Below are positions 1-17,116 of a stretch of 64,000 nucleotides of DNA, piece after piece; within the stretch, counting starts at the first letter, position 1, and the number at the start of each line of letters is the position of its first letter. The DNA is from Clostridia bacterium (GTDB taxonomy: Bacteria; Bacillota; Clostridia; TANB77; UBA1234). The notes beneath the pieces are model-generated. The model saw only the letters and a list, made by a program, of their open reading frames with translations. It did no database searches and had not been told where the DNA came from. The stretch is from contig JAFYBZ010000014.1 of assembly GCA_017539905.1 (NCBI GenBank), forward strand, positions 184,312-248,311. The letters are read 5' to 3'. The position numbers and the translations under genes were made by a program.

Positions 1-851
1 GAATATGACAATTTCTTATTGCCAAGACCATACAAAACTATTTCATCATCGTGAGTATCATTATTTTCCTCAATTGTTATTTTATCCACTTTTTTATCAA
101 TGATTTTTATAGTTTTGTTAACCATATATTCATCTTTTTTTAACCAATTAAGTAAGTAAAAATACTGCATTGGTATTTGAAGCATACCATCCACCATAAC
201 ATCAGAGTTATCAACGTAATGCTCATAAAATGTCTCATAATATTCCAATTTTGCCTTAATTGCTTCATAAACTTTTTTATCAGTTTTTTCATAATCAGCT
301 AATATATTTTCTCTATAATTGTATTTATACCCCAACTCACTCTCAAGCTTAGTTTGTTTAATGTCAAAAATGATTTTTTTAACATCATTAAATTTTTTTC
401 TAAACTCTAATCTCTCATATGACTTAATATCCGCTTTTGGATTTAAGGTATATTTGAGCATATAAGTATAAAAACCTGTTTTTTTACCTTTGGAAATATA
501 CATATCCATTTCAATTTCAGCAAAAGAATCTGGAGAATTATCGCTTAATTGAGGAAGAATATAATATATGTCATTTTCAATTTTAATATCATCTATGCTG
601 GTAAATTTAAGAGTTGAGTTACCCATTTTTCTATAACCAATAAAAGAACCAACTGCACAAATTGCTTTTATAATACTAGTTTTTCCTGAAGCATTTCCAC
701 CAATGATACCTGCGATTTTGTTCAATGATATTCCTTTATCAATAGGACATACCGTTGTTTTCTTTTCTTTTTTCCTAGGAGTAGCTCTAAAATCTAATTT
801 GATCTCATTATTAATACCCGCTATATTGTTTAGATATATATAATTAAACAT
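1..851 (-). CDS. AAA-family ATPase (AAA_15/AAA_21-like), N-terminal portion; 3' end lies left of the window
   Basis: Translation from ATG at ~851 (RBS GGAGA upstream): MFNYIYLNNIAGINNEIKLDF...IAGIIGGNASGKTSIIKAI. Walker A motif is read directly. Such ATPases are typical defence-island proteins; the exact family is not assignable from this fragment. Confidence 0.55.
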   Translation of the reverse strand, partial: MFNYIYLNNIAGINNEIKLDFRATPRKKEKKTTVCPIDKGISLNKIAGIIGGNASGKTSIIKAICAVGSFIGYRKMGNSTLKFTSIDDIKIENDIYYILPQLSDNSPDSFAEIEMDMYISKGKKTGFYTYMLKYTLNPKADIKSYERLEFRKKFNDVKKIIFDIKQTKLESELGYKYNYRENILADYEKTDKKVYEAIKAKLEYYETFYEHYVDNSDVMVDGMLQIPMQYFYLLNWLKKDEYMVNKTIKIIDKKVDKITIEENNDTHDDEIVLYGLGNKKLSY

Positions 852-904
852 TAATATTCTCCTTTCAAATGACATTTTAAGTCTTTTGTGTACCTTTGTC
901 AATA

Positions 905-930
905 TGCAATACGATTTTTTTCGTATTGCA
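905..930. promoter_or_regulatory. 26-bp palindrome TGCAATACGA-TTTTTT-TCGTATTGCA in the promoter region of the AAA ATPase gene (operator or hairpin)
   Basis: Perfect 10-bp inverted arms read directly from the sequence. Confidence 0.3.
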
Positions 931-1206
931 ATGGCTTTTTTCTAATTACTTAGTCTTTTCTACAGTAATAAATACAATCTCATGCATTATTTGATATACT
1001 TATTATACATTATTTTTTATCAATTCTTTATAGAAAAGCGCTTTGCCATAAACAATAAAATCCCACCTATTTTACACATCAAAATTCATAGTATTTTGTG
1101 TCACTGGGTTACTATTGAATAACACCATGGATATCGTTATGATAAAATTCAATATAATTATATGAAAAAGCCACAGTTCATAAAAAGAACGTGGCCTTTT
1201 TTTTAT

Positions 1207-3054
1207 CTATCCCTCAAATATAAATTTAATAATCCTATCAGCAGCTTTTTGGGTTGCCTTATTAATATCATCTTTCTTCCAATATGGTTTTGTTTCAAAT
1301 TTATATCTTTCTACCAATGCTTTTGCAAGAGGAAACTTACTATTAACATATCCTTTTTTATCTTCAATTGTATTAGACAACTTACTTCTAAACCATTCAT
1401 TACCAATAGAACGATTTATACTTTCTTCTAAAACTATTTTATTACCTAGTTTGTTCACGATGTCTTTAAATTCTTCTTCAGAAGCAATATCTGCGTCGCT
1501 TCTTATAGAAGAGTGGTTCTTTCCACTTAATGGCATAATGTGTTCTATATCGTATTTATCTGTCAAATCAAATATCATATCATTTTCTTTTGCGTATAGA
1601 TATTCATTAACATATACAAGCATATGCTTATCATAATCAAGTATTGCATTTTTAATAATATCCCTGTTCCAGTTTTTATTTATATGATTATCAAAGTCAT
1701 TTTTAATTTCATAATCTAAAATATTAGGATTTATTAATCTTACTTCTTCTCCAAATAAGAAAGTTTTAAAGTACTTGCTTGAATAACCAATATCAGTTAG
1801 TTCGACAATTACAAACAACCTAATAAGACACTCTACTACGACTGTAATCCTTTCTTCTGTTATGTCTTCAACATTATATCTTTTAAAATAACTAGTTAAA
1901 AACAATTTTGCATTTTCATTTAATTTTAATAATACTTGTACGCAAGGATAATATGAAATCTTATTCCAAATTGCCGCAATTTTTATCATATCTTTAGTTA
2001 AATCAATTGGATTGTTAATTAGATTTTTATTTAAATCAATATAATATCTTCTAACGCCTGGTACAGTTACATCTATAGAACCTGTGTTACTAATTGTATC
2101 CCCATTAATTGTTCTTTCATAATACATTTTTTGCATTAAAACCGAGTCTATAGTTGCAATTTTATTGCGAGAAAGTATTTCTATTTGGTTCTTAAGATCC
2201 TCCCAAAGTCCAACAAATTCCTCTTTTTTATTTAATGATTCTGCTACTGCATAAAGTTTTGCAGATATTATATCGGAATCATTTAGAGGTAATCCATCTG
2301 AGTTTAATGAATTAAACATAGTTATAGCTTGTTCAACTTGCCAGCTCTTTATTTCAATAACTTCGCATTTTGATATAACTGTTTTAGCAATTGTGTTTAA
2401 GTTTGTTTCACTTAATTCGGAAGCTTGCTCATAGAAAAATTTAAAATTCTTAAAGAAATTTGTATACTTATTATCTTTTTGCTTATATGGGATTTTAATA
2501 ACTCTTTGTTCAGCTTGATCAAAATCAACTGACTGTAAAATGGTTGTTAAATCATCTTCATACTGCTCATTGATCGAATTATTAACAAGAATTACAGCAT
2601 TTTTAACTAGCTCTTTGTCTTTATCAATATCAGGAATATTAGATACATTCTCAGCTTCGGCTCTGCATAGTATTCCCATTAATTGTCTTCTACGTTCTTC
2701 AAGTCCACTACGCAAACTTGCAGATTCATCATCATTACTTATTTCATTAAGAACATTATTGATCCTAATAAGCAAAGCTTTTAGCAATAACAAAAAAGTT
2801 GTTGTTCTTTGTTGTCCATCTATTAATCCCAAACTCTTATCTTCATCCTGACAATTAATAATAATTGTTCCAAAGAAATAACTATCCTTATTGTCGCCTT
2901 CTGAAAATAAAATGATATCATTCCATAATTTATCGCAATGTTCTATTCCCCATGAATATGCTCTCTGATATTCCGGGATTAAAAAATTAACCTCTTCATC
3001 TAGCTTTAGATAATCCCCAATTTTCTTTAGTTTTGGTTCAATATTTTTTGCCAT
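1207..3054 (-). CDS. brxU: GmrSD-family type IV restriction endonuclease (DUF262 N-terminal + DUF1524/HNH-like C-terminal), BrxU-like
   Basis: N-terminal motifs EYQRAYSW and DGQQRTTT match DUF262. C-terminal HIMPLS...NKIVLEESINRSIGN matches DUF1524. Start re-called at MAKNIEP after GAGGAGG. The ORF-track start at 3084 overlaps the pglZ stop and is the alternative. Confidence 0.75.
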   Translation of the reverse strand: MAKNIEPKLKKIGDYLKLDEEVNFLIPEYQRAYSWGIEHCDKLWNDIILFSEGDNKDSYFFGTIIINCQDEDKSLGLIDGQQRTTTFLLLLKALLIRINNVLNEISNDDESASLRSGLEERRRQLMGILCRAEAENVSNIPDIDKDKELVKNAVILVNNSINEQYEDDLTTILQSVDFDQAEQRVIKIPYKQKDNKYTNFFKNFKFFYEQASELSETNLNTIAKTVISKCEVIEIKSWQVEQAITMFNSLNSDGLPLNDSDIISAKLYAVAESLNKKEEFVGLWEDLKNQIEILSRNKIATIDSVLMQKMYYERTINGDTISNTGSIDVTVPGVRRYYIDLNKNLINNPIDLTKDMIKIAAIWNKISYYPCVQVLLKLNENAKLFLTSYFKRYNVEDITEERITVVVECLIRLFVIVELTDIGYSSKYFKTFLFGEEVRLINPNILDYEIKNDFDNHINKNWNRDIIKNAILDYDKHMLVYVNEYLYAKENDMIFDLTDKYDIEHIMPLSGKNHSSIRSDADIASEEEFKDIVNKLGNKIVLEESINRSIGNEWFRSKLSNTIEDKKGYVNSKFPLAKALVERYKFETKPYWKKDDINKATQKAADRIIKFIFEG

Positions 3055-3070
3055 AATAAGCCTCCTCTTC

Positions 3071-5599
3071 TTATTCAACTCCATCTAATATATCTATAAC
3101 AAACTCTATCTTCTGTTTATCCCCGGTCTTCTCATTTTCTATTACTAAATAGTACTTCTTAGAATCAATATACTTCATGCTCTTAAATACAAATTTTTCT
3201 TTAAATACCCTGTTTTTTACTACGTCGTCTTTATACTCAGCAATTATGGTGGTCTCATCAGAAATTCTATTTTCATCTTCGTCTTCAAATCTTACTAAAT
3301 ACCTACAAGCTTTATGGAATGAATCAACTCTTTGAGCTTGAATAAATGTTAAATATGATACAACATTAGAAATCCTGTTGGAGTTTCCACTATATACTAT
3401 TTCAACATTTTCAGCTTCTGAATTAATATTTCTAGATGATTTAAAGTCAATAACAGGAATAATTATTTCCTGTGGCAAAGCACCACCATGTACATAATTT
3501 CGTCCTCCACCTTGTCTAGAATATATAATCTCACCCTTAGGTATATTAACATATCCACTATCTTCTCCAAATAAGTAATCCATACTAATTGAAAGAATAC
3601 CTTCTTTGTTAACCTTATTCTTAGTATACTCATATCTAAGCTTAGCTACTGATGATTCTTCACCTTTTTCTATAGTGCCAGATTTTTCTATTGCCCCATT
3701 TTTATAGAAGAATCCATGATCTGCTGTAATGAACAAATTAATACCGCCGAATGTTGTATGCAAATTTTCTACTAATTTGTATAGTTCTTCTATTGTATTT
3801 TGACATTCATTAAATACATTTAGCTCATCATGTTCTCCAGCATTATCTATTCTATCATGATAAATATAGATTACTTTTTTACCCGAAAATAATTTTTGCC
3901 ATTCAGCTTTTCTCATTTCTTTGAAATCCGAATATTGTATAGCTATTGAGTCTTCTTGAGCATTGTTTAATATCCTTTCTCTATCTTTAATACCAGAAGA
4001 TTTTATTCCATCAACTAAAATATCTATTTCATTTTTGTCTCTTTTTAATTCTGCATTTGGAAGCAAAGATGCCATTCCAAGCTTGGTATATGATGGTACA
4101 TTTCCCCACATATATTCAACTTTAGTATCAGTAGTAATATCTCTTAATCTCCTGTTTAATTCTTTTGCAACTTCAAATCGCATTGCATCAGATATTATAA
4201 CAATGGTTCTTCCTTTTTTAGAATTAAATGGTTCGACAAATCTTGAATAAAACTTTCTTTGTAAAGGAATTCTAGTATCATCAAAAGAATTCATTTCTTC
4301 AAGAGATAAGCTCCAATTAATAGACAGTGCTTCAATATATAATTTGTTATATATTTTTTCTACAAGTTCTTTTATTTCGCTAAATTTTTCTTTATCTGCT
4401 ACATGATCAAAATCATATGATATCTTTCTATATAAAGTATCTAATTTATATAACTTATCTGTATATAATTTAGCAAAAGAGTCTATATCCATCTCTTTAA
4501 TTGATCCTAAATAATCATTACTCTTCTGATAAAATCTCATTGCTTTCTTTAAGAAATCAAACTCGTGATTCATCTTATTGCCGAAATACTTGCTTTCTCT
4601 AAAACTTAAATATCTATTATATGTATCATAGTTTTTTTCATGATTATTAAGATTTTTAACTACATACATTATTATATACTCATCTATGGCTTTGAAAGCA
4701 TCACACTCGACGAAACTATCAATCTCATGCTCGGAAATTATTTGTGAAATTCCAAACTCAGTTTCTGCATTTCTAGACATATCCTCAAATAGGTTCTGAG
4801 ATTTTAAATCTCTCATCAACTGATCAACAAAAAAGTTGATATTGTTTCTTTTTTTCAACATAAAGGTTGAAAACATAGTCGTATTATCAATAAATGTATT
4901 GCTCTCAAAGTAAGTAATCATGATGCAATTCATTAGATCTCCAATTTCCGAAAATGAATGTATGTCAGAGCCGAAGTAGTCATTTAAAACATTCATAACA
5001 AAATCTTCATTAGCACATTTGGTTAGCTCAACATAACACTTTGAATTGCTTTTATACTCTATAAATAAATTCTTAATAATTTCTTCAATTTGTATACTTT
5101 TAATTCCTAAAAGAGCAGCTATAATCATATACTCAAGGTTTTCTCTTGTCTTTTCTTCATCAAACTTCTTTAAAGATTCCACTCTTTTAGCACTCTTGAA
5201 AAATTTATAGTTTTTTTCAATAATCGGTCTTAAATCTTTATCTAGTTTTAAGTCATTAATAATCTGAGATGCTTTGTCTAATGAAAACTCCAAATCCATA
5301 TTTTTAACATACAAATCCAAAAGAGGGTTATCATAGATATTCTGTTTTCCGTCAGGGAAGAAGATAATAAAGTTGTCCTTAGGTTTTTCAGTTTCAATAT
5401 GATATCTCAAGAAAAAACTATTGTTGTCATATATTAATATCTCTGCATTATTAATATGTAGACTCTCGACAGTCTCAATAGTTTCTCCTTCTTCCCCTTC
5501 TTTATTAAACCAGAATATTATTTTTCTACATCTACCCTCTTTGTTAAAGTCAGTAGTATTATCTATTAACTTTTGCAACAATTCCTGTACATTGTCCAT
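3071..5599 (-). CDS. pglZ: BREX-1 alkaline-phosphatase-superfamily protein PglZ
   Basis: 842 aa. PglZ-like region TIVIISDAMRFEVAKEL...GNVPSYTKLGMASLLPN. Position directly after pglX in the operon. Confidence 0.85.
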   Translation of the reverse strand: MDNVQELLQKLIDNTTDFNKEGRCRKIIFWFNKEGEEGETIETVESLHINNAEILIYDNNSFFLRYHIETEKPKDNFIIFFPDGKQNIYDNPLLDLYVKNMDLEFSLDKASQIINDLKLDKDLRPIIEKNYKFFKSAKRVESLKKFDEEKTRENLEYMIIAALLGIKSIQIEEIIKNLFIEYKSNSKCYVELTKCANEDFVMNVLNDYFGSDIHSFSEIGDLMNCIMITYFESNTFIDNTTMFSTFMLKKRNNINFFVDQLMRDLKSQNLFEDMSRNAETEFGISQIISEHEIDSFVECDAFKAIDEYIIMYVVKNLNNHEKNYDTYNRYLSFRESKYFGNKMNHEFDFLKKAMRFYQKSNDYLGSIKEMDIDSFAKLYTDKLYKLDTLYRKISYDFDHVADKEKFSEIKELVEKIYNKLYIEALSINWSLSLEEMNSFDDTRIPLQRKFYSRFVEPFNSKKGRTIVIISDAMRFEVAKELNRRLRDITTDTKVEYMWGNVPSYTKLGMASLLPNAELKRDKNEIDILVDGIKSSGIKDRERILNNAQEDSIAIQYSDFKEMRKAEWQKLFSGKKVIYIYHDRIDNAGEHDELNVFNECQNTIEELYKLVENLHTTFGGINLFITADHGFFYKNGAIEKSGTIEKGEESSVAKLRYEYTKNKVNKEGILSISMDYLFGEDSGYVNIPKGEIIYSRQGGGRNYVHGGALPQEIIIPVIDFKSSRNINSEAENVEIVYSGNSNRISNVVSYLTFIQAQRVDSFHKACRYLVRFEDEDENRISDETTIIAEYKDDVVKNRVFKEKFVFKSMKYIDSKKYYLVIENEKTGDKQKIEFVIDILDGVE

Positions 5600-5614
5600 G
5601 CGTTTTTCTCCTAA

Positions 5615-8600
5615 TTATTTGATTTTTGCTAATACTTTATCGAATTTTGCGTAATTAACCTTAACGCCGTCATCTAAATCAATTTTGATTCTTTGATCAG
5701 CTAAATGTTTAATTTCTTCATCATAATCTATAATTTCCTGTAGTTTAGATGATAAATCTTGTTTTTGCTTCTCAAGCTTTCTAATTTCAGCACCGCTTTC
5801 TTCTTTCTCTAATCTTTCTTCAATGTCTTTAAGAAGGTTTTCATATGTTTCTTGAACTTTTAGAAGATAATTTGTTCTAATATTAGATACAGTTGCATCA
5901 TCATATCTATGCATATATATTAGACACTTAAAGCCATTATTCTTTCCGCTATCAAACAACCAATAAATTGGTCTTTTTTGATATATCTTGCAATGGTCTT
6001 TGTAAAAGTCATTAACAAAGTATCTTCTAATTGTTTCCTGACTTGTTTCTGTTCCTTTTCTACCAAGAGTTTCTGCTATATAATTAAGATTTTCAGCTAG
6101 ATACTCCTCGCCAAAAGCAACTCTAATGAATTCAACAAATCTTGTAACTATGTCATCACTAAAAAATGCATTATCCACTATTGGAATTACATTATCCATA
6201 TCTGGAGTAAATGATAATTCTATAGCGTCTTCTCCATCTTTTAAAAATATACTGGTTCTATTATCTAATATAATATGACCGCCCGATACTGCTCTTCCAG
6301 CTATCGGTGAAGATACTGCTTGATATACATCACTAAATTTTCCACCAGCATATATAAGCCCTTCTTTATCTAATGAGTATCTTCCAAGCATACAACCAAC
6401 GGCATAACTAATAAGTGATTTAACTTCTCGCTCTCTATCTGCTTTTCTAATAGTAATATCATTATCTGCTACTTCAGGTGTTAGAACATCACGTAGACCA
6501 TATATGTCTATAAAGAGGCGATTTAACTCTTCTTCATTTTGCTTTAAACAATTAAACTTTGATTCACAATTTCTTTTCCATGAATCAAATGAATCTTTAA
6601 TCTTGAAGCTCCTAATATCATTATCAAAACCATTTCTTTTTTTATATTCAAGTAGTGGATGATTAGTGAAATCCCAACTAGTTTCAAATGAATTCCAGTC
6701 TTCTTTTGATACTTCTATAAGTTTCAAAACTACACTTTTAATTGTAGAATTAAAAGAAATACTCTCATGATTAAATGGCAGTGCAAGTAAATTTCCAGGA
6801 GTCAAGTTTAAAGTTGGGTTCAGCATAGATAAATAGTATGTCCCGATTTTTGAATTAAATAACCCCAAAAAATATTCTTCAAACTTGTCTCTACATGAAC
6901 AGATTGGCCCAGCATCATCAAACATATATCCTTCATTGACATATCTGAAAGCATAATTAGATGATGATATTTTTGTCCATGTAATGGCTTTTTTAAATGC
7001 ATACTCTCCATTATAATTATGTGATCTAACTCTATTGGTTATTTTATCATAATTATCATTTTTCATTTCGTAACCATCATCATACCAATTAACAATATAC
7101 TCATTATTTCCATACCATTTTCTATAAGCTCCTCCTTTTTGATAAGGAAACCATTTAATCTTAGACCTTATACTATCCGCATTCGATTTACATCCAAAAT
7201 AAACATTGTATATATTAGGTTCATACCATAACCTTAAAAACCTACTTGTATCACCTGTTACCAATCCGATCCTTGGGTTAATATACTTATTGATATCTTT
7301 ATATTTGAAATTATCAATTCCATTTTTAGGTAGCCAGTAAAGCATTGGACTACCCGGTATTAATTTGAAACTAGATAAATCAGCCAAATATAAGTCATTA
7401 TTAACACCAGATATAGCCTTTAAATACATTTCCTCTTGTTTCTTCATTCCTCCAACATAATCTGTTAGCCTTATATATTTTCCATCTTTTTGGCAATTTG
7501 AAGAATTATAAATAACAAAACTACAAATAGGAACTGTAGCTTCTTGCAAGGCGGAATATTCAAATTGTATTAATGAAGAAATTACCATATTCCTAATAAT
7601 AAATTGCCTTAACTTCTCATATGTTTGAATAAACATCCAAACGTATGGTGTCATAAAACCCAAATATCCTCCTTTTTTATTAATTCTTTGGTTGTTAATA
7701 ATAAAGGCCGAGAAGGTATCACTTTTATACTCGTTGTACTTTTCATTTATATACTCTTTAAGCTTAGGAGGCATTAAACTTGAATTCATATATGGTGGAT
7801 TTGTTACAACTATATCGTATTTGTTAGCAATCAACAGTGCACTTTTTAATACAGGAAGAAATTTATTTTTAATCTCATTTAATTTATCCATATCAAAAAC
7901 ACTTTGCTGTCCATTTAATTTTTCTTCTATTGTTTTTTGAATATCAGAATAATTCTTATCTTCTATTATTAAAAGTGAGCCTATTTCTTTAGCGTCTTTC
8001 ATGTTGTCATATATATAGTTTAAAGCTTCATTATATGTGTAGTTTTCTATATCATCTCCATCCTTTTTAATTACATCTAAAGTTCTTCTATCCATTGTAT
8101 TGGTTTCTGATATACTAATGATGTTCAAACCTTTTGTAACTTTTTTATTAAAAATATCTCTGTCATATTCTCTAGCCTTTAGAAGTACTGAAAGAACGGA
8201 TAACTGAAATGCTCTATCATCTATTTCCAAACCATACAGATTGTTTTCTAATATTGATTCCGGAATAATGGCTTTGCTATAGCCATAAGAAAGATATATT
8301 TGATACAACACCTCAAACAAATAAACTAAAATGTGTCCACTTCCACTACATGGATCTATACACTTTATATCTTTAGGATCTATAGTTTCTTTAAGTTCTA
8401 TGTTGGCGTCTTTAATGTAATACTTCCAATTATCTATTAGTCTTGTATCCCCTCTATGTTCAATCCAATATCTACCTAAAGAGTTCTCAACCATGTATTT
8501 TACTATCCAGTCTGGAGTAAATAGTTGTGTTGCATATGCTATTTCATGTTTTTTGTAAACCTTTTTAGCTGATATTACTCTGTCTTTTTCCGTTTGGTTA

Positions 8601-9265
8601 TAGTATTGATATAGCCACCCTATGATTTCAACTTCACTAAAGTTTTCTTCTGGAACATCAGTCAAAAGTTTTTTTATAATACCAGCACTCAACAATAATC
8701 CATCTGGTATTAATATATCAATATAGTCTGTTACACCATCAAATACTTGAGGAATTACTCTTCCAAGTTTTTTCACTAGTAGAAGCATGATATACTTATA
8801 CTTCTCCTCTTCCAGATTGATAGTACTATACTTTTCGTAATCAAATCCAATATCTAATTCTGGACTTCTTAGATTAGAAAGTTTCATAATTTCTGGATTA
8901 GGGGTATTATCCTTATCAGACAATACTCTTATCCCCAGTGATTGATTATCAGAAGTTAACGGCAAATAATCATGTATTTCCATATATCTTAAAGCAATAA
9001 TTCTATTGAACCAAGTATATGCAGCCTCTTCAACAACTCTCTCCTCAGTAATTTCCTTAATTCTTTCTAGAAGCTTAAGTCGGTTCTTATACTCATTCTG
9101 AGTGTATGTGAATGAATGATGTAATCCTCTTAAAATAACCAAATCACCATTATTGATGACCTCAAATTCTTCATTTAGGAATAGTCTATCAATTTTCTTT
9201 TTAGTTTGGTCCATAAGCAATTTTCTTGATTCAATTGCAAATTTCTTTAAAATATTTTTGTCCAT
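5615..9265 (-). CDS. pglX: BREX-1 N6-adenine DNA methyltransferase PglX
   Basis: 1216 aa. Methyltransferase motif I IDPCSGSGHILVY and motif IV VVTNPPYM. Confidence 0.85.
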   Translation of the reverse strand: MDKNILKKFAIESRKLLMDQTKKKIDRLFLNEEFEVINNGDLVILRGLHHSFTYTQNEYKNRLKLLERIKEITEERVVEEAAYTWFNRIIALRYMEIHDYLPLTSDNQSLGIRVLSDKDNTPNPEIMKLSNLRSPELDIGFDYEKYSTINLEEEKYKYIMLLLVKKLGRVIPQVFDGVTDYIDILIPDGLLLSAGIIKKLLTDVPEENFSEVEIIGWLYQYYNQTEKDRVISAKKVYKKHEIAYATQLFTPDWIVKYMVENSLGRYWIEHRGDTRLIDNWKYYIKDANIELKETIDPKDIKCIDPCSGSGHILVYLFEVLYQIYLSYGYSKAIIPESILENNLYGLEIDDRAFQLSVLSVLLKAREYDRDIFNKKVTKGLNIISISETNTMDRRTLDVIKKDGDDIENYTYNEALNYIYDNMKDAKEIGSLLIIEDKNYSDIQKTIEEKLNGQQSVFDMDKLNEIKNKFLPVLKSALLIANKYDIVVTNPPYMNSSLMPPKLKEYINEKYNEYKSDTFSAFIINNQRINKKGGYLGFMTPYVWMFIQTYEKLRQFIIRNMVISSLIQFEYSALQEATVPICSFVIYNSSNCQKDGKYIRLTDYVGGMKKQEEMYLKAISGVNNDLYLADLSSFKLIPGSPMLYWLPKNGIDNFKYKDINKYINPRIGLVTGDTSRFLRLWYEPNIYNVYFGCKSNADSIRSKIKWFPYQKGGAYRKWYGNNEYIVNWYDDGYEMKNDNYDKITNRVRSHNYNGEYAFKKAITWTKISSSNYAFRYVNEGYMFDDAGPICSCRDKFEEYFLGLFNSKIGTYYLSMLNPTLNLTPGNLLALPFNHESISFNSTIKSVVLKLIEVSKEDWNSFETSWDFTNHPLLEYKKRNGFDNDIRSFKIKDSFDSWKRNCESKFNCLKQNEEELNRLFIDIYGLRDVLTPEVADNDITIRKADREREVKSLISYAVGCMLGRYSLDKEGLIYAGGKFSDVYQAVSSPIAGRAVSGGHIILDNRTSIFLKDGEDAIELSFTPDMDNVIPIVDNAFFSDDIVTRFVEFIRVAFGEEYLAENLNYIAETLGRKGTETSQETIRRYFVNDFYKDHCKIYQKRPIYWLFDSGKNNGFKCLIYMHRYDDATVSNIRTNYLLKVQETYENLLKDIEERLEKEESGAEIRKLEKQKQDLSSKLQEIIDYDEEIKHLADQRIKIDLDDGVKVNYAKFDKVLAKIK

Positions 9266-9269
9266 TTAT

Positions 9270-12200
9270 TTACCCCTCTTTAATTGTAAGCTTGCCATTA
9301 GTAGCAAGTTCTTCTTTAAGTTTGGCCCTAATCTCTTCGACATATTTATCTATGTCCTCTTCGCTGTCAATTTCAAATGAATGATTAATTAATTTACCTA
9401 CTCTAACTACTTTTCTAGGTGTTGGTACTGGTGCAGGATCTCCTGGTTCAGTTGGCTGCTCTGGTTCTTGTAATTTTGCTTTTTCAAGTTCCAACCTGAT
9501 ATCAAATTCTTCTTTTATGTTAGAAATTAATGTCTTTTGAGCAAGTATAATTACAAGTTCGTTTGAAGTCTTAAGCTCATCAATTACAGCTTGTTCTCTT
9601 TTTGCAAACTTTTCAGTAATACCATTATCTAGTTTTGCAACAGCAGCTTCTTTTTGAATGTACTGAATTGCATCATTTGCTTCATCAATAATAGGTTGGC
9701 ATCTCTCATCATATATTGCAGTTAAAGAATCAACAAGTTTTCCTTTAAGTGTAGGTAATTTAAAAATATCACTATATGGTTCTTCTGATTGCATTATAGC
9801 TTTCATTTCGTTAGCTATATCGTCAATTTCTTTATTTTTGCCAATGTACTGCTGATTTTTATCATAAACGTTAAGTGCTGATCTTGCATTGTCAAATATT
9901 TCTCTTTGATTATTCTGTTCATCAAAGAATTCTAAAGCTTTTTCAAGTTTAGGCATATTTTCTTTAAAAAATTCTTCTTTACCATTTACTTCCTCGAAAA
10001 AGTCTTGATTATATTTGATATCTAGTAAACCATTCAAACAAGTGTAAACGCTATTTACCGCTTCTTTAGCAGGATATTCATAAGTTGAATATCTACCATA
10101 GTATCCTTTTGCAAACACAACATTGTTAATGCTTTTTATTTGATCGTTTAAACAATTCTTAAATCCTTCAACCATTTGATCTTCATCTTCGCCGATATCT
10201 GTTTTATTAAAATATTTACGACTAATAGATTTAAGACCATCAAGAAGTTTTTGATCTATTTTAGTTCTAAGTCTAACTGTAGTTCTATCAAAATAGCTTC
10301 TATTTGTAAGCTTATTAACGGTTTCTGTTGCTGCTGGAATCTGAATTTCATTACCATACACAAGATTAATATAACCATCTTTTAATGCTTTGGCCAATAG
10401 ATACAATATATCATCTTCTAAATAACCATATGGCACTTTTTCGAAATCTTGAAGTATAGTTCTAATAGTTAATGATGCAATATCGGAATTTTTGTATTTA
10501 ATATACTCGGCTATTTCATCATATGCTTTTTGGTTTGGAAATTCTTCAATATTAGCAATCTTAGTTTGCAATTTTTTATCTTGAAGCAATGCTTTGATAT
10601 CTTCTTTAGTGTAATTCTTTTGAATAAATGCTAATTTGGTGTACTTGTTACTGATTACTATTGCTAGTGCTTCGTTTATTCTTGTCTTAATGTCTTTACT
10701 CTTTATGCTTTCATACTTGTTACCACCAATAATTATTTCTGAGTTTTCAAGAGCGTTTTTAATATAATCTTTCACGGTAGCTTCAAGGTTTCTCATTTCA
10801 ATGCTTTTTGTTGAAATAATTACATTTAGTTCATCGGACAATGTGTTTTTCTTTTGTTCCTGAAGATACTTTTCAATTTGAAGCTTATATTTCATATCTG
10901 ATAATACTTCATTATTAAGTATCAACTTAATAATTGCATATTTATCATCCTCAAAATACAATGCTTTATCATCTTCATCAGGAGCTAAGGTTCTAATTTT
11001 AAAACCAATATCTGTTTCATTAGTATATAAATAGTCATCAATTGCTTTGGTTATAACAAATGGTTGATTCTTATACATCATTTTAGAATCATTATAAAAA
11101 TCATCTAGGATTATTTTCTTTAGATAGTCAGTCATTGCTTCCCTATCTATTTCTTTGTTTTTAATCTCACGATTAACTTCCTGCTCGTCATCTGTTAGAA
11201 ATGTATATACATCTCCATTTTTTTGAATTAACGTTTGTCTTTCTAGTCTCTTTAATGCATTAGTAATATTTTCTCTCAATACAAGTTTGTCTTCATCAAT
11301 ACTAGATACAAACAATGCTGTAATATTGTCGATGTTTGAAGGAAGAGTTTTTATATTTTTTAATAAAAATAATGTTTTAAGAACATTAACATCAAGTTCT
11401 TCTAAGTGGCCAGATTTTTTAAGCTTTTCTGCACTGTTTATAACATTTCTTACCTTAATACTAAGTTCTCTTTCTGCAGTATTGTAAAATACATATAAAG
11501 GTATAAAAGCTCCTAAATCTTCATCTGCACATGTTTTTACTGCTTCTTGTACAGCACTAATAAGTGTTCTTTCACTTCCTGCTAAGCTAATACCAGCAAA
11601 TCCTTTATCACGAATACTCTCAAATATATCTTGTAACAAAGGAAATTGATATGGAATCATAGGATATGTTCTAGCAAAGTCCTCATTATCTTCATATTCT
11701 CTTTGATGTTGACCACCTTTAAAGAATAACAAATTTTTAATAATAGCATGTTTATCACTATACAATGCCCTTAATGACTCATCGATTGCATCTTTCTTCT
11801 TTAAAAGACGTTCTTTGATTATTTCATCAATGTTTGTTGAAGAAATATCGATTCTAGTATGGAATCTTCCAAGCATTTTTGACATTGTAAGCCCATGAAC
11901 ATTTTTAATTACAACATCAATTGCTTGTTGAGCTGTTGCTATAACCCATGCATTGCCTTGACAAATATCACCCAAGTCTTCAACTATTGTTTGAAGGTCT
12001 AAAACTAATTTGTCATCATTACCAATATATAAGCTTACTTCATCAACAAGAAATACTACTTGATGATTTCCACCCTTTGATTTTATATATTCATTTACTC
12101 TTTCAGCAAAATCTCTAATAGAAATACTATAGTTTCTTTCGGTCTTATCCATAAGTTCTTTTGCATAGTCTTCATTGACATTCATTACCTTAGAATAAGC

Positions 12201-12824
12201 CTTTACAAAGTCTTCTTCTACAAATTGAAATCCATTTCTTTCTTCGTCCCAATTGTTGCCATTAATACTTTTGAATTCTTTCTTAAACTCATCAAACTTA
12301 TTGTTCTTTATTATGTTTCTTTCTATTTCTGCAACAGCAGGATTAGTAGAAAGACCTAATTTCTCATTGAACACTTTTTCAAATACTTCCAATATTGCTT
12401 CTTTATTACCAGTAGCAGAATTATTGTTGGCCTGAGAAGCAATATTAAATAGAATCACATCTGAACTCATTTTTTGAATTTCAGAAATATCTTCCAATAG
12501 AGATTTATCCGAAAACTTGTCTTCGAAATACTCTTTCACACTTTTTCCATTTACTACTTTATTATCAATAATGTAAGATAGCATCTTTAGAAAGTGAGAT
12601 TTTCCGCTTCCAAAGAACCCAGAAATCCAAACGCCAACATTATGGCTATGATCTTTAATGCCTTCTTTATAATTTGTAAAAAACAATTTGAATCGTTTTT
12701 CCATTTCTTCTGTAACAACATATTCTTCTAATTCTTGAACTATGTTTTTCTCGTCTTCAACCGTAATTGCTGCTTTTATAGGTCTGTTAATATCCTTATA
12801 AAATATATTCCCCAATTTTTCCAT
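9270..12824 (-). CDS. brxC: BREX-1 ATPase BrxC/PglY
   Basis: 1184 aa. N-terminal P-loop GFFGSGKSHFLK. Size and position are typical of BrxC. Confidence 0.85.
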   Translation of the reverse strand: MEKLGNIFYKDINRPIKAAITVEDEKNIVQELEEYVVTEEMEKRFKLFFTNYKEGIKDHSHNVGVWISGFFGSGKSHFLKMLSYIIDNKVVNGKSVKEYFEDKFSDKSLLEDISEIQKMSSDVILFNIASQANNNSATGNKEAILEVFEKVFNEKLGLSTNPAVAEIERNIIKNNKFDEFKKEFKSINGNNWDEERNGFQFVEEDFVKAYSKVMNVNEDYAKELMDKTERNYSISIRDFAERVNEYIKSKGGNHQVVFLVDEVSLYIGNDDKLVLDLQTIVEDLGDICQGNAWVIATAQQAIDVVIKNVHGLTMSKMLGRFHTRIDISSTNIDEIIKERLLKKKDAIDESLRALYSDKHAIIKNLLFFKGGQHQREYEDNEDFARTYPMIPYQFPLLQDIFESIRDKGFAGISLAGSERTLISAVQEAVKTCADEDLGAFIPLYVFYNTAERELSIKVRNVINSAEKLKKSGHLEELDVNVLKTLFLLKNIKTLPSNIDNITALFVSSIDEDKLVLRENITNALKRLERQTLIQKNGDVYTFLTDDEQEVNREIKNKEIDREAMTDYLKKIILDDFYNDSKMMYKNQPFVITKAIDDYLYTNETDIGFKIRTLAPDEDDKALYFEDDKYAIIKLILNNEVLSDMKYKLQIEKYLQEQKKNTLSDELNVIISTKSIEMRNLEATVKDYIKNALENSEIIIGGNKYESIKSKDIKTRINEALAIVISNKYTKLAFIQKNYTKEDIKALLQDKKLQTKIANIEEFPNQKAYDEIAEYIKYKNSDIASLTIRTILQDFEKVPYGYLEDDILYLLAKALKDGYINLVYGNEIQIPAATETVNKLTNRSYFDRTTVRLRTKIDQKLLDGLKSISRKYFNKTDIGEDEDQMVEGFKNCLNDQIKSINNVVFAKGYYGRYSTYEYPAKEAVNSVYTCLNGLLDIKYNQDFFEEVNGKEEFFKENMPKLEKALEFFDEQNNQREIFDNARSALNVYDKNQQYIGKNKEIDDIANEMKAIMQSEEPYSDIFKLPTLKGKLVDSLTAIYDERCQPIIDEANDAIQYIQKEAAVAKLDNGITEKFAKREQAVIDELKTSNELVIILAQKTLISNIKEEFDIRLELEKAKLQEPEQPTEPGDPAPVPTPRKVVRVGKLINHSFEIDSEEDIDKYVEEIRAKLKEELATNGKLTIKEG

Positions 12825-12836
12825 CTTAATTCTCCT

Positions 12837-13409
12837 CTACTTTTTATATACTAATTGAATTGCTTTATAATAATCATTTGGCTTTAGTTTATTAAATAGT
12901 CTTAATCCGTTTTCATCATAGCCTCCCGGGTACAACAATAAAACAGGATTTTCATCAACTACTTTTTCAAGATTACTTAGTATAGTATGTGCTCTAACAA
13001 CGCCAAAGCATTTTCCTATACCTTTTAATACTAGTATCTCATCTTTTTTCAAGTCTTTTGTAATTTCATTAAGTAATAGATCTCTAGACGATCCTACGCC
13101 AATAGTACTTGTTATAACGCCATTGGTATAATCAATACCTTTTTCTTTTTCCATTTTGTATACTTTTTCTAGATATCCTTTTTCTTTAAGAATATTAATT
13201 ATGCAGTCATAAACATCAACTATTCTTAAGTGAAAATCATCTTTTACATTTAGATATGTTTCAAAATAATTGTAGACTTTTTCTTCATCTTCAGGATCAT
13301 AATCAAAAATGAAAAATTTTAATCCGTTACCTAAGCTCTGCGTTTCACTTAATTTTTTGGTTTTAAGTTTGTCATAAACTTCTTGAAGTCTATTTTCTAT
13401 AGTCCTCAT
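12837..13409 (-). CDS. brxB: BREX protein BrxB (DUF1788-like)
   Basis: 190 aa. Its start overlaps the brxA stop by 4 nt. Size and position in the BREX operon fit BrxB. Confidence 0.65.
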   Translation of the reverse strand: MRTIENRLQEVYDKLKTKKLSETQSLGNGLKFFIFDYDPEDEEKVYNYFETYLNVKDDFHLRIVDVYDCIINILKEKGYLEKVYKMEKEKGIDYTNGVITSTIGVGSSRDLLLNEITKDLKKDEILVLKGIGKCFGVVRAHTILSNLEKVVDENPVLLLYPGGYDENGLRLFNKLKPNDYYKAIQLVYKK

Positions 13410-14002
13410 CTTAAACCTCCTATCGCTTTTAAGTAGTCTTCATCATTATGCTTCTTTAATAAATCAATATATTCTTCTGTTAATAAAGGTCTTATAATTA
13501 AATATGAATCTTTTTGATATTTAACAAGTCCCGCATCTTTCAAAATCTTTATAAGAACTTGCCTTAATTTATATCTAGTACTGTCGGTACACTTACTTAA
13601 CGTAGGGCTGTTATCGCACTTCTCCTTTATCCAGCCATTAATGTCATAGTCATATATTAAGTCAGATCCTATAAGAATTTTTTCTTTATAAATATCATTA
13701 ACAAAATCGTTAACTAACTTGTTTGTCTTCATAATTATATATAGAAGAATAATTTTGCTTGTATCTACATCACTATTTACGAAATCATATAGAATTTCAT
13801 CATCCATAGCTTGTAACCTATTAAAGATTCCAGAGTTAACTCTCAAAATGCTACTTTTTGTTTTATGCATTATTAAATTTTCATCTACATTTCGTTTTCG
13901 TAGCTCATTAATGTCTTCACCCTGTATTAAGTATTTCGCCAAAATCTTGGTTTCATTATATAAAAACGGCTCACCCGTAAGTCTTGCACTATAATCTTCC
14001 AT
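13406..14002 (-). CDS. brxA: BREX protein BrxA (DUF1819-like)
   Basis: First gene of the operon. Start re-called at MEDYSARL after AAAGGAGAAAACA, by frame arithmetic from the ORF track. The track's longer N-terminus lacks an RBS. Confidence 0.6.
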   Translation of the reverse strand: MEDYSARLTGEPFLYNETKILAKYLIQGEDINELRKRNVDENLIMHKTKSSILRVNSGIFNRLQAMDDEILYDFVNSDVDTSKIILLYIIMKTNKLVNDFVNDIYKEKILIGSDLIYDYDINGWIKEKCDNSPTLSKCTDSTRYKLRQVLIKILKDAGLVKYQKDSYLIIRPLLTEEYIDLLKKHNDEDYLKAIGGLR

Positions 14003-14138
14003 TGTTTTCTCCTTTCGTAACGATATCATGATAACATATTTTATGTACTTTTTCAACGCAAATTACAAAAATTTGCAAAAAAAGTGTATATTTTAAAAAA
14101 TCTTTGCAAAAAGTTGCTTGAAACACAAACTCATGTTC

Positions 14139-14897
14139 TCATTTTCTAATTCGCTTATTCACACATCTCCCCACCAACATCCCCATCAGCTCCTTCACCT
14201 TCTCAAAACCTTCCGTTTTTTCGCCGGTTTCTTCATTCATATACACCTTTTTATTGATCTCTATCATTATAGATTTCACCCTTTTATCTTTGGTCTTATA
14301 ATACTTGTTCGGTATTATAGCTCCTGCAAATGGGTAATTCTCCTTGCAAGTTAATCCATACTCTTTTGCTAATTCTTTAAATCTTTCTATATATGCTTTA
14401 TCGCAAAAGTCTTCTTCATAACCAATACATATGTCTGGATATGGTCCTTTGTTTCCTATCATATCTGCCCACTTTTCAGAAAAACTATGACCATCAATTA
14501 CTATGCATTCTCCTCTTTCTTCTATTATTCTTTCAGCAAAAGAATCTAGCAAAGCATGATGCAAATCATACACCGCTTCTATTATCTTATTCTTATATGC
14601 ATCATCTAGTTTTATCAAATCTTTACCATCCGTTGTTTTAGTATATACTGCTCCCATACCTATTTTGCTCATTACTTCATCTTCATCATTTTTAAATCTT
14701 TCTACATCGCAAATTAGTCTAGAGTATTCACATTTCAAATTGATACAATTCTTGTTTTCAAATATTTCATCTGTATAATAATCTGTCAAAATATTTAGTT
14801 GCTCCTGCAATTCTTCGTGGCTTATCAGCAACCTGTCAAAAAACTCATTTGTAAGCTTAGTAGAACTATGTGGAATATTAATTAAAACTTTTTTCAT
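14139..14897 (-). CDS. N-formylglutamate amidohydrolase family protein
   Basis: Start at MKKVLINIPHSS after AGGGAGG. Motifs INIPHSS and VIDGHSF are characteristic of the FGase family. Confidence 0.65.
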   Translation of the reverse strand: MKKVLINIPHSSTKLTNEFFDRLLISHEELQEQLNILTDYYTDEIFENKNCINLKCEYSRLICDVERFKNDEDEVMSKIGMGAVYTKTTDGKDLIKLDDAYKNKIIEAVYDLHHALLDSFAERIIEERGECIVIDGHSFSEKWADMIGNKGPYPDICIGYEEDFCDKAYIERFKELAKEYGLTCKENYPFAGAIIPNKYYKTKDKRVKSIMIEINKKVYMNEETGEKTEGFEKVKELMGMLVGRCVNKRIRK

Positions 14898-15100
14898 ATA
14901 AAAACCTCCCTTTGTTTCCACAAAGAGAGGCATAAAAATAACTCCCATCGTTTGATGGGAGTTGAATTTAAAATGAATACTGAACAATCCCATCATTCAA
15001 GCTTTAGCACCTTGCCTTTTGGCAGGTTGCTGAAGGGTCGTCGAGCTTGTCTCTCGCCTTCTCTTTATGGTGAGCTTATTATATCATATATTAATATTAA
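14898..15100 (-). promoter_or_regulatory. Leader of the FGase gene: promoter TTGAAT-17-TATAAT followed by a candidate attenuator with mutually exclusive antiterminator and terminator
   Basis: On the minus strand, three segments occur in order: ATGATGGGA, then 26 nt, then CTCCCATCA, then AAC, then GATGGGAG followed by a U-run. Segment 2 can pair with either segment 1 or segment 3, with 8 bp each. Confidence 0.4.
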
Positions 15101-16446: not shown

Positions 16447-16932
16447 CTACAACTTTTTAATTCCCTTAAATCCGATTATTCCAATAACGATTGCTCCAAC
16501 AGTAATACCTGCCACTTTTAAAATATCCAAAAAATCTTTACTTGCCTCTTCTCTTGTACTGGTATTATTTATAATCGCTGATGCAAATGCATTGGCTTTT
16601 CGTAGAACAATTTCTCTATCATTATCACTATAATTTTGAGGGTTATCTACAATCATTTCTAAAACCCATGCTAATATATCATCTACTCCTTCTTCTTTTT
16701 TATTTTTTTTCCTATCCATATTTGCATATGGATATGCGATTAATTCTTTTAAAACAAATCTCATAGCTATATATTGTGTTTTACTTAACTTACTCTTATT
16801 ATTTTCTATATTGCTCATAGTTTGCCTAGTTATACCTACTTTATTTGCAAATTCTTCAGCAGTCCAACCAGCAAGTTTTCTAATTAAAACTATATTTTTT
16901 TGAAATCTTTGAATTTCAGCTTCTTCTCCCAT
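16447..16932 (-). CDS. XRE-family HTH transcriptional regulator with C-terminal transmembrane segment
   Basis: AEEFANKVGITRQTMSNIENN is the HTH. The hydrophobic tail is GITVGAIVIGIIGF. Start at MGEEAEIQ after AGAGGTGA. Confidence 0.65.
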   Translation of the reverse strand: MGEEAEIQRFQKNIVLIRKLAGWTAEEFANKVGITRQTMSNIENNKSKLSKTQYIAMRFVLKELIAYPYANMDRKKNKKEEGVDDILAWVLEMIVDNPQNYSDNDREIVLRKANAFASAIINNTSTREEASKDFLDILKVAGITVGAIVIGIIGFKGIKKL

Positions 16933-17116
16933 TTCGATCACCTCTATTGGCATTATAACATATTTTTTGACGAATGTAAATATTTTTTGTCATTAATGTT
17001 AATTTTTTTACATTTAATTTGGAAATAGTATTAAAAAAAGTTGCTTAATTTAGCAACTTTTCTCTTTTCTTTATTCAATTTTACCTTGCTAACCACTTAG
17101 CTTAAGGCTATTTTGA

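What the first reader, a model, noticed from the sequence alone, without database searches (positions are those of the whole stretch)
1207..14002. Type 1 BREX locus lacking brxL, ending instead with a GmrSD-family (BrxU-like) type IV restriction enzyme
brxA, brxB, brxC, pglX and pglZ are all recognisable and tightly packed. After pglZ, with start and stop overlapping, comes a 615-aa DUF262/DUF1524 protein (EYQRAYSW, DGQQRTTT, C-terminal HIMP...) rather than the Lon-like BrxL. GmrSD-type enzymes such as BrxU, embedded in BREX loci, give complementary defence against modified-base phages. Here it appears to replace brxL, with a terminator immediately after it. No BrxR-like regulator is present. 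Two TTTGCAAA palindromes, 31 bp apart at 14072-14110, sit just upstream of the brxA promoter and might be operator sites.
Basis: partly seen in the sequence, partly recalled or inferred. Interest (0 to 1): 0.6.

Follow-up and report, generated by a model that had tools for sequence, protein, structure and literature searches.

The report
BrxL-less BREX operon plus GmrSD nuclease
A Clostridia genome carries a five-gene BREX phage-defence operon that lacks the usual sixth gene (brxL) and ends with a GmrSD-family nuclease, a combination whose two halves are each already documented, so it is a well-built but fairly ordinary defence island.

Summary
On the minus strand, 1207-14002 is one tight operon: brxA-brxB-brxC-pglX-pglZ followed by a 615-aa DUF262/DUF1524 (GmrSD-family) gene. 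It has one promoter and one terminator. No brxL or brxL remnant lies in the 64-kb window or in 8.8 kb to its left, read from a 99.99%-identical contig.

The nuclease occupies brxL's position, but nothing suggests it does brxL's job.
- The closest BREX relative (L076, PglZ 63% identical) is also a five-gene locus, with neither brxL nor GmrSD.
- The nuclease's relatives (41-66% identical) are either stand-alone or attached to type I R-M operons. Three are in BREX loci at other positions, and all three loci keep brxL.
- It is "BrxU-like" only by fold: 13-16% identity, no RLFDS motif, and its best PADLOC match is HEC-06.

Published work already reports that about a quarter of type-1-like BREX loci lack BrxL, that Salmonella BREX defends without BrxL, and that GmrSD enzymes are common riders on BREX.

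The most likely reading is two independent, co-transcribed layers: BREX against unmodified DNA and a type IV enzyme against modified DNA.

One small new lead: a paired TGC(A/G)AA motif upstream of brxA is conserved across related loci.

The parts
14072..14110 (-). Pair of TTTGCAAA motifs (core TGCAAA) 31 nt apart, 16-55 nt upstream of the -35 hexamer. Candidate cis-regulatory sites.
   Evidence: Sequence and a 15-nt direct repeat. Analogous pairs of TGC(A/G)AA at 31-33 nt spacing occur upstream of brxA in L076, L016, L019, L022 and L024. The binding factor is unknown.
14028..14056 (-). Promoter of the operon: TTGAAA, 17 nt, TG-n-TATCAT (extended -10).
   Evidence: Consensus scan, 10 of 12 matches with a TG. 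It is followed by an AAAGGAG Shine-Dalgarno sequence and ATG 14002. This is a consensus match only; transcription was not measured.
13406..14002 (-). brxA (198 aa)
   Evidence: PF08849 E 1.8e-47; PADLOC BrxA E 7.6e-52; 70% identical to L076 BrxA.
12837..13409 (-). brxB (190 aa)
   Evidence: PF08747 E 3.5e-32; PADLOC BrxB E 1.2e-49.
9270..12824 (-). brxC (1184 aa), P-loop ATPase
   Evidence: NF033441 at 1031 bits against a cutoff of 400; PADLOC BrxC at 1070 bits; Walker A GFFGSGKS at residue 69.
5615..9265 (-). pglX (1216 aa), BREX-1 N6-adenine methyltransferase and specificity factor
   Evidence: NF033452 BREX_1_MTaseX at 1283 bits against a cutoff of 500; NPPY at residue 489.
3071..5599 (-). 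pglZ (842 aa), BREX-1 PglZ type A
   Evidence: TIGR02687 at 463 bits against a cutoff of 270; PF08665 E 5.8e-48. It keeps 64 of the 68 columns that are invariant in 16 relatives.
1207..3054 (-). GmrSD-family (DUF262 + DUF1524) putative type IV restriction endonuclease, 615 aa, HEC-06-like
   Evidence: PF03235 and PF07510; PADLOC HEC-06 E 7e-39; IDGQQR at 78 and EHIMP at 504, invariant in 36 homologues. The AF2 model (pLDDT 74) matches only BrxU in the PDB.
1165..1200 (-). Intrinsic terminator hairpin ending the operon
   Evidence: RNA fold -16.8 kcal/mol, z = -3.96, 0 of 200 shuffles as stable. The next gene has its own promoter, TTGACA-17-TAAAAT, at 902-874.

Best explanation
This is a six-gene defence operon made of two independent layers.

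Layer 1 is a five-gene, BrxL-less type-1 BREX core (BrxA, BrxB, BrxC, PglX, PglZ). By analogy with characterised systems, PglX together with BrxB, BrxC and PglZ methylates one adenine in a non-palindromic host motif. Incoming DNA that lacks the mark is blocked, with PglZ as the nuclease/effector candidate.

Layer 2 is a self-sufficient GmrSD-family enzyme. It has an N-terminal DUF262 NTPase with DGQQR and a C-terminal DUF1524 His-Me nuclease with EHxxP. Its gene has been appended to the 3' end of the operon and is co-transcribed with it. It most likely cuts DNA carrying modified bases, and so catches phages that escape BREX by hypermodifying their DNA.

The loss of brxL and the gain of the nuclease were probably separate events. 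BrxL was probably already missing in the ancestor shared with the nearest relative.

Shown here: gene content, intact motifs, operon layout, absence of brxL, and the contexts of relatives. Inferred: all activities, the substrate of the nuclease, and co-transcription.
For: - Gene identities and intact motifs.
- Tight spacing, one promoter and one terminator.
- No brxL in the window or in 8.8 kb beyond it.
- The closest BREX relative, L076 (BrxA 70%, BrxB 73%, BrxC 68%, PglX 51%, PglZ 63% identical), has the same five intact genes, then a hairpin and a convergent housekeeping gene, with no brxL and no GmrSD. It forms a clade with the window in the PglZ tree.
- L019 is a third intact five-gene locus, nested among loci that have BrxL.
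- The nuclease's nearest homologues (63-66% identical) are single genes next to housekeeping genes in Streptococcus. In Roseburia the gene sits beside a transposase, and in one MAG it lies in another defence island.
- Of 29 informative metagenome loci, about 16 have type I R-M genes in the flanks. Several have HsdR or HsdM ending 2-50 nt before the nuclease gene. Three are BREX loci.
- In those three BREX loci the nuclease sits after brxL (L037) or between pglX and pglZ (L039, L067), always with brxL present. BREX-linked copies are not monophyletic.
- Literature: BrxU and BREX act independently and complementarily (PMC8565348). GmrSD-like genes are frequently embedded in Hma, type I R-M and BREX systems, and HEC-06 is a validated defence that needs the DGQQR and EH residues (bioRxiv 10.1101/2024.01.29.577857). 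Salmonella BREX methylates and defends without BrxL (PMC11341690). PglZ is a nuclease (PMC12205998). BrxL is found in only 74-76% of type-1-like BREX taxa, and GmrSD is a prominent auxiliary effector (PMC12839542).
Against: - E. coli and Acinetobacter BREX need BrxL for defence, as cited in PMC11341690 and PMC12839542. A BrxL-less core may therefore only methylate.
- Three of the four BrxL-less loci among the 16 relatives from the PglZ genome scan are visibly decayed: L018, L024 and L025.
- Modification dependence of this nuclease subfamily is untested. At least one GmrSD-like enzyme, EF_B0059, was toxic even to an E. coli strain unable to methylate its DNA (PMC11322646).
- The AF2 model is poor in the N-terminal 80 residues.
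- The trees are neighbour-joining without support values.
- The rest of the genome could not be searched for an unlinked brxL.
Confidence: 0.72

Rival explanations
1. The BREX core is defence-dead without BrxL. It survives only as an orphan epigenetic (methylation) module or as a decaying remnant, and the GmrSD enzyme is the only working restriction activity in the operon.
For: [quoted passage not shown] Among related loci lacking brxL, L018, L024 and L025 show remnants or deletions.
Against: All five genes are full length with catalytic motifs, and 64 of 68 invariant PglZ columns are retained. The same five-gene layout is kept intact in L076 at 51-73% protein identity, which implies long-term purifying selection without BrxL. 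Salmonella BREX defends without BrxL, and sometimes better (PMC11341690).
Confidence: 0.15
2. The GmrSD-family protein has been recruited as a functional substitute for BrxL. It would then be the effector that BREX directs against unmethylated invading DNA.
For: It occupies exactly the brxL slot, 16 nt after pglZ and in the same operon. BrxL variants carrying a nuclease (HKD) domain exist, so a nuclease at this position has a precedent (PMC12839542).
Against: The nearest BREX relative lacks both genes. Every other BREX-linked copy of this subfamily coexists with brxL and sits at other positions. The closest homologues work in non-BREX contexts. There is no homology to BrxL. BrxU acts independently of BREX (PMC8565348).
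Confidence: 0.05
3. The system is a normal six-gene type-1 BREX whose brxL is encoded elsewhere in the genome.
For: Only about 73 kb of the genome could be inspected.
Against: In 12 of 12 related loci with BrxL, brxL lies directly after pglZ. L076 also ends at pglZ. I know of no precedent for an unlinked brxL (own knowledge).
Confidence: 0.05

Closest known systems
Type 1 BREX (Goldfarb 2015 definition; E. coli HS, Acinetobacter, Salmonella D23580 systems)
   Same: Same gene order brxA-brxB-brxC-pglX-pglZ. PglX and PglZ pass the curated BREX-1 NCBIfam models and BrxC passes the general BREX BrxC model. Walker A and NPPY motifs are intact.
   Different: It has no brxL and no BrxR regulator. This resembles the experimentally made Salmonella brxL deletion, which still methylates and defends (PMC11341690), and the roughly 24-26% of type-1-like loci reported to lack BrxL (PMC12839542).
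pEFER BREX + BrxU defence island of Escherichia fergusonii (PMC8565348)
   Same: A GmrSD-family DUF262/DUF1524 enzyme lies inside a type-1 BREX operon in the same orientation. BrxU is the only significant structural match to the model. The expected logic is complementary targeting of unmodified and modified DNA.
   Different: BrxU sits between brxC and pglX, and pEFER keeps brxL and has brxR. Here the enzyme is last and brxL is absent. Identity is only 13-16%, with no RLFDS motif, EHIMP instead of DHIYP, and no hit to BrxU by phmmer or to HEC-05 models.
HEC-06 GmrSD-like defence (Payne et al., bioRxiv 10.1101/2024.01.29.577857)
   Same: It is the best PADLOC match (E 7e-39). It has DGQQR plus an EHxxP-type motif and lacks RLFDS. 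It is a single-gene defence found embedded in other defence operons. The validated essential residues (QR of DGQQR, and EH) are conserved here.
   Different: The HEC-06 models align mainly to the N-terminal half (residues 13-307). Host and context differ: Hma systems in the paper, BREX or type I R-M here. Phage range is unknown for both.
Auxiliary GmrSD (ParB + HNH) effectors of BREX loci (PMC12839542)
   Same: This locus fits the described class: an HNH-type GmrSD gene immediately adjacent to core BREX genes, in the same operon.
   Different: That survey does not single out loci where GmrSD sits in the brxL slot of a BrxL-less locus. I could not retrieve counts from its supplements.

Membership tests
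Type 1 BREX | BrxA (DUF1819) and BrxB (DUF1788) genes at the head of the operon | tested here: met
   PF08849 E 1.8e-47 and PF08747 E 3.5e-32; PADLOC BrxA and BrxB.
Type 1 BREX | BrxC/PglY P-loop ATPase | tested here: met
   NF033441 at 1031 bits against a cutoff of 400; Walker A GFFGSGKS.
Type 1 BREX | BREX-1-type PglX adenine methyltransferase with NPPY | tested here: met
   NF033452 at 1283 bits against a cutoff of 500. The BREX-5 and BREX-6 models score below their cutoffs. NPPY at residue 489.
Type 1 BREX | PglZ type A | tested here: met
   TIGR02687 at 463 bits against a cutoff of 270.
Type 1 BREX | BrxL (Lon-like AAA+ protein) following pglZ | tested here: not met
   tblastn with a Pfam-verified BrxL finds nothing in the window or in L001. 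Genes left of the window are an AAA_21 ATPase, DUF8370, Ymh and NUDIX. I therefore file this as a BrxL-less variant of the type-1 core, not a canonical six-gene type 1.
Type 1 BREX | Motif-specific N6-adenine methylation of host DNA and exclusion of unmethylated phage | not testable with these tools
   Needs methylome sequencing and phage assays.
BREX types 5 and 6 | BrxHI or BrxHII helicase in place of BrxL | tested here: not met
   No helicase domain in the ORFs of 80 aa or more flanking the operon. The PglX and PglZ models for types 5 and 6 score below their cutoffs.
[quoted passage not shown] | N-terminal DUF262 domain with the (I/V)DGQQR motif | tested here: met
   PF03235 at 113 bits against a cutoff of 33. 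IDGQQR at residue 78. D79, Q81, Q82 and R83 are invariant in 36 homologues.
[quoted passage not shown] | C-terminal DUF1524 His-Me/HNH domain with the (D/E)HxxP motif | tested here: met
   PF07510 at 47 bits against a cutoff of 23. EHIMP at residue 504. E504, H505, N538 and N547 are invariant.
[quoted passage not shown] | Helical linker between the two domains in a single polypeptide | tested here: met
   The AF2 model is largely helical between about residues 82 and 490. Fold match to BrxU has probability 1.0.
[quoted passage not shown] | NTP-dependent cleavage of DNA with modified bases | not testable with these tools
   Biochemistry is required. The substrate cannot be predicted from sequence.
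BrxU (HEC-05) subfamily | Sequence-level relatedness to BrxU, including the RLFDS nucleotide-binding motif and DHIYP | tested here: not met
   No BrxU hit by phmmer or by profile search of the PDB. No HEC-05 model appears among all 25 PADLOC hits. RLFDS is absent and the nuclease motif is EHIMP. Identity in the structural alignment is 13-16%.
BrxU (HEC-05) subfamily | Embedded in a BREX operon in the same orientation | tested here: met
   The gene starts 16 nt after pglZ on the same strand, with a shared terminator.

The most novel reading that the evidence does not exclude
In this lineage the GmrSD-family nuclease has been co-opted as the executioner of a BrxL-less BREX. BREX recognition of unmethylated motifs would license the appended DUF262/DUF1524 enzyme to cut. 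That would give BREX a dedicated DNA-cleaving effector and explain how it can do without BrxL.
Probability: 0.05. Interest if true: 0.75.

Novelty: new member of a known kind. Interest (0 to 1): 0.32.

Why it matters
Whether BrxL is needed for BREX defence is an open, system-dependent question: it is required in E. coli and Acinetobacter but dispensable in Salmonella. The window and L076 form a small natural clade in which five intact genes have been kept without BrxL over substantial divergence (51-73% protein identity). That makes them a convenient natural test case for BrxL-independent BREX. The locus also adds a Firmicutes example of the rule that modification-dependent nucleases ride on methylation-based defence operons (BREX, type I R-M). 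Finally, it points to a conserved paired motif that may control BREX expression in lineages without BrxR. None of this changes current understanding. It mainly supplies material for experiments.

Tried and rejected
- Exact-protein look-up with the 625-aa ORF found nothing. The 615-aa form from ATG 3054 is the form on record.
- The alternative start at 3084, which would overlap pglZ, is rejected because the N-terminus MAKNIEPKL is conserved in 36 homologues and the Shine-Dalgarno sequence precedes 3054.
- A brxL remnant in the 355-nt spacer after the nuclease gene, or anywhere in the window, was not found.
- I looked for conserved non-coding flanks that would mark the nuclease gene as a cassette. 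Only the ORF and its Shine-Dalgarno sequence are shared.
- The GC content of the nuclease gene (0.280) does not differ from that of the BREX genes (0.276-0.296), so composition says nothing about recent transfer.
- The L028 GmrSD, which lies after brxL, turned out to be a different subfamily at 26% identity. It supports only the general BREX-GmrSD association.
- The supplements of PMC12839542 held no searchable GmrSD counts.
- No tRNA genes lie in the window that could mark an integration site.
- The count of TTTGCAAA in the whole window (13 against 6.6 expected; 4 of 100 shuffles reach 13) is not convincing on its own. The case for the motif rests on conservation of its position in relatives.
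- A resemblance of TTGCGAA to the Spo0A box TGTCGAA was considered and dropped, with 2 of 7 mismatches (own knowledge, untested).
Full report
**What is there.**
The window is AT-rich (about 28% GC), and composition does not change across the region. On the minus strand, six ORFs run head to tail from 14002 to 1207.

Pfam, PADLOC and NCBIfam identify them as follows:
- BrxA, 13406-14002.
- BrxB, 12837-13409.
- BrxC, 9270-12824 (NF033441, 1031 bits).
- BREX-1 PglX, 5615-9265 (NF033452, 1283 bits).
- BREX-1 PglZ type A, 3071-5599 (TIGR02687, 463 bits).
- A DUF262 + DUF1524 (GmrSD_N + GmrSD_C) protein, 1207-3054.

Gaps between genes are -4, 12, 4, 15 and 16 nt, and each gene has its own Shine-Dalgarno sequence. 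A sigma-70-type promoter with an extended -10 (TTGAAA, 17 nt, TG-n-TATCAT) lies at 14056-14028. A hairpin terminator at 1165-1200 closes the unit, at -16.8 kcal/mol with z = -3.96. The next gene has its own promoter at 902-874.

The nuclease gene starts at ATG 3054 and encodes 615 aa. The alternative ATG at 3084 is not the start, for three reasons:
- The Shine-Dalgarno sequence AAGAGGAGG precedes 3054.
- The N-terminus MAKNIEPKL is conserved in 36 homologues.
- The public record holds the 615-aa form.

**Is brxL really missing?**
Contig L001 is 99.99% identical to window 1-13054 and extends 8.8 kb past the left edge. Beyond the nuclease gene it carries these genes, and no BrxL:
- an AbiLi-like AAA_21 ATPase,
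- a DUF8370 protein,
- a 228-aa protein,
- a Ymh-family protein,
- NUDIX, ArsC and other housekeeping genes.

The same gene order was seen in contigs from at least four samples. The query was a BrxL verified by Pfam, with BrxL_N, BrxL_ATPase and Lon_C domains. With it, tblastn finds nothing in the window or in L001. No ORF of 80 aa or more that I scanned upstream of brxA has a helicase or WYL domain. An unlinked brxL elsewhere in the genome cannot be excluded.

**Are the five BREX genes intact?**
All are full length against the family profiles. BrxC keeps its Walker A motif and PglX keeps NPPY. PglZ retains 64 of the 68 columns that are invariant in 16 relatives.

**What do the relatives of the BREX part look like?**
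A genome scan with PglZ returned 16 loci at 33-48% identity.
- Twelve have a 676-aa BrxL directly after pglZ.
- Four do not. L018 keeps a 24-aa brxL remnant and L025 keeps a C-terminal fragment of about 150 aa. In L024, brxC and pglX are largely deleted. L019 has all five genes intact and no brxL.

The protein database holds one much closer relative, P0121, on contig L076. [quoted passage not shown] L076 has the same five genes, followed by a hairpin and a convergent housekeeping gene. It has neither brxL nor a GmrSD gene.

In a neighbour-joining PglZ tree, the window and L076 form a clade that is sister to the mostly BrxL-bearing group. L019 is nested next to a BrxL-bearing locus. The simplest history is that BrxL was already absent in the common ancestor of the window and L076. 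The five-gene core has been maintained since then, and L019 lost brxL independently. The only genes the window and L076 loci share are the five core genes, so no other conserved partner replaces BrxL.

**What is the nuclease, and where do its relatives live?**
It has the family-defining motifs IDGQQR (residue 78) and EHIMP (residue 504). Further His-Me positions N538 and N547 are invariant in 36 homologues. These are the residues shown to be essential in BrxU and in HEC-06 (PMC8565348; bioRxiv 10.1101/2024.01.29.577857).

Its relation to BrxU is distant:
- Its best PADLOC matches are HEC-06 models (E 7e-39), and no HEC-05/BrxU model hits.
- phmmer and a family profile find only the N-terminal domains of SspE and of one other DUF262 protein in the PDB, not BrxU.
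- An AlphaFold2 model (pLDDT 74, weak in the first 80 residues) matches BrxU as its only significant PDB neighbour: E 1.6e-5, 13-16% identity, TM 0.35-0.38.
- The RLFDS motif of BrxU is absent.

So it is a GmrSD-family enzyme that is BrxU-like in fold and architecture but is not a BrxU orthologue.

Homologues are abundant at about 62-66% identity.
- In Streptococcus the gene sits alone between guaA and an ABC transporter.
- In Roseburia it lies next to a transposase.
- In one MAG it sits in another defence island.

Among 45 metagenome loci at 41-65% identity, 29 have at least 2 kb of upstream sequence. About 16 of these carry type I R-M genes in the flanks. HsdR or HsdM ends immediately before the nuclease gene in L038, L041, L052 and L065, and in L054 only an AAA_13 ATPase gene lies between hsdR and it.

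Three of the 29 are BREX loci:
- L037: pglX-pglZ-brxL-GmrSD.
- L039 and L067: brxC-pglX-GmrSD-pglZ-brxL.

All three keep brxL. BREX-linked copies do not cluster in the nuclease tree, and the window's sister is the stand-alone L013. A different GmrSD subfamily (26% identity) lies downstream of brxL in L028.

The gene therefore behaves as a self-contained module that repeatedly lands at the end of, or inside, methylation-based defence operons. Payne et al. describe this pattern for GmrSD-like genes, and PMC12839542 describes it for BREX auxiliary effectors.

**Mechanism.**
The best-supported reading is two independent layers under one promoter.

The first layer is the BREX core. It marks host DNA by PglX-dependent adenine methylation and blocks unmarked DNA. 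That this can work without BrxL is inferred from two observations:
- Salmonella BREX with brxL deleted keeps methylation and defence, sometimes enhanced (PMC11341690).
- PglZ has nuclease activity (PMC12205998).

The second layer is the GmrSD enzyme. It uses NTP hydrolysis by DUF262 to control a His-Me nuclease, and it most likely attacks modified DNA. This is inferred from BrxU and GmrSD (PMC8565348). The substrate is not predictable, and one family member was toxic even to an E. coli strain unable to methylate its DNA (PMC11322646).

Functional replacement of BrxL by the nuclease is not excluded, but nothing supports it. A defence-dead, methylation-only core remains a real alternative, because E. 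coli and Acinetobacter BREX need BrxL.

**The palindromes.**
Both TTTGCAAA copies exist, 31 nt apart and 16-55 nt upstream of the -35 hexamer, within a 15-nt direct repeat. The genome-wide count is not striking: 13 against 6.6 expected.

The same position upstream of brxA carries a pair of TGC(A/G)AA motifs 31-33 nt apart in L076 (TGCAAA twice), in L016, L019 and L022 (TGCGAA twice) and in L024 (TGCGGA twice). Such pairs occur about 22 times in 680 kb searched, so this positional recurrence is far beyond chance, although the loci are homologous.

The conserved unit is a direct repeat spaced at about three helical turns. The 8-bp palindrome itself is not conserved. The binding factor is unknown.

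**Comparison with what is known, and verdict.**
Each half of the finding is already described:
- BrxL is present in only 74-76% of type-1-like BREX taxa.
- GmrSD enzymes are a prominent class of BREX-adjacent effector (PMC12839542).
- BREX plus BrxU is the experimental paradigm (PMC8565348).

This locus is a clean new example, in which the nuclease happens to sit where brxL would be. Its moderate value is as a natural BrxL-less five-gene clade, and for the promoter motif. I score interest at 0.32 and rate it a new member of a known kind.

Noticed in passing
window 14072-14110; also L076 ~1640-1680, L016 1266-1303, L019 1550-1586, L022 1636-1673, L024 7165-7202: A pair of TGC(A/G)AA motifs, 31-33 nt apart start to start, is conserved just upstream of the brxA promoter across related BREX loci that otherwise differ in intergenic sequence. 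Both copies carry the same variant within a locus (TGCAAA, TGCGAA or TGCGGA). No BrxR/WYL regulator is nearby, and the binding factor is unknown.
   Followed up: partly
window 1-851 (minus strand, runs off the left end); L001 12204-15981: Directly after the BREX/GmrSD terminator, with its own promoter (902-874), lies an AbiLi-like ABC/AAA_21 ATPase (419 aa, PADLOC AbiLi E 5e-39). It is followed by a DUF8370 / PDC-M36A-like protein (292 aa), a 228-aa protein with no hits and a Ymh-family protein. This is probably one or two further defence systems in the same island.
   Followed up: partly
L019 1676-13700: An intact five-gene type-1 BREX without brxL in a Clostridia MAG, nested among BrxL-bearing relatives in the PglZ tree. 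pglZ is followed by a small antitoxin/toxin-like gene pair and then uvrB. This looks like an independent, recent brxL loss.
   Followed up: partly
L028 4062-5304 and 14591-17897: Two small ORFs (149 aa with CxxC pairs, and 280 aa, neither scanned against domain libraries) are embedded between brxC and pglX. After brxL come two more small ORFs with no Pfam hits and a distant GmrSD (612 aa, 26% identical to the window's).
   Followed up: partly
L025 13312-16575; L030 2643-5909: A Cas9-sized ORF (about 1087 aa, N-terminus MKYSIGLDIG, not verified by a domain search) lies right after the BREX locus in two Bacillales MAGs. In L025 brxL is reduced to a C-terminal fragment of about 150 aa, whereas L030 keeps a full brxL.
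   Followed up: no
window 14139-14996: The ORF for N-formylglutamate amidohydrolase contains two terminator-like hairpins (14904-14963) in its first 30 codons, and the Pfam match begins at residue 37. The true start is probably near 14890, and the hairpins likely terminate the upstream gene.
   Followed up: no
window 16447-16953: A 168-aa HTH_3 (Xre-type) protein has the best promoter match in the region (TTTACA-17-TATAAT with TG, 16980-16952). It lies 2.4 kb upstream of brxA, with weak PADLOC hits to HTH_VI, RmrA and CapH-type regulators. A link to the defence island is untested.
   Followed up: no
L067 5687-7520 versus L039 7001-8839: The BREX-embedded GmrSD copy in L067 is interrupted (longest ORF 365 aa), while the near-identical arrangement in L039 is intact. 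This is either a pseudogene or an assembly error.
   Followed up: no
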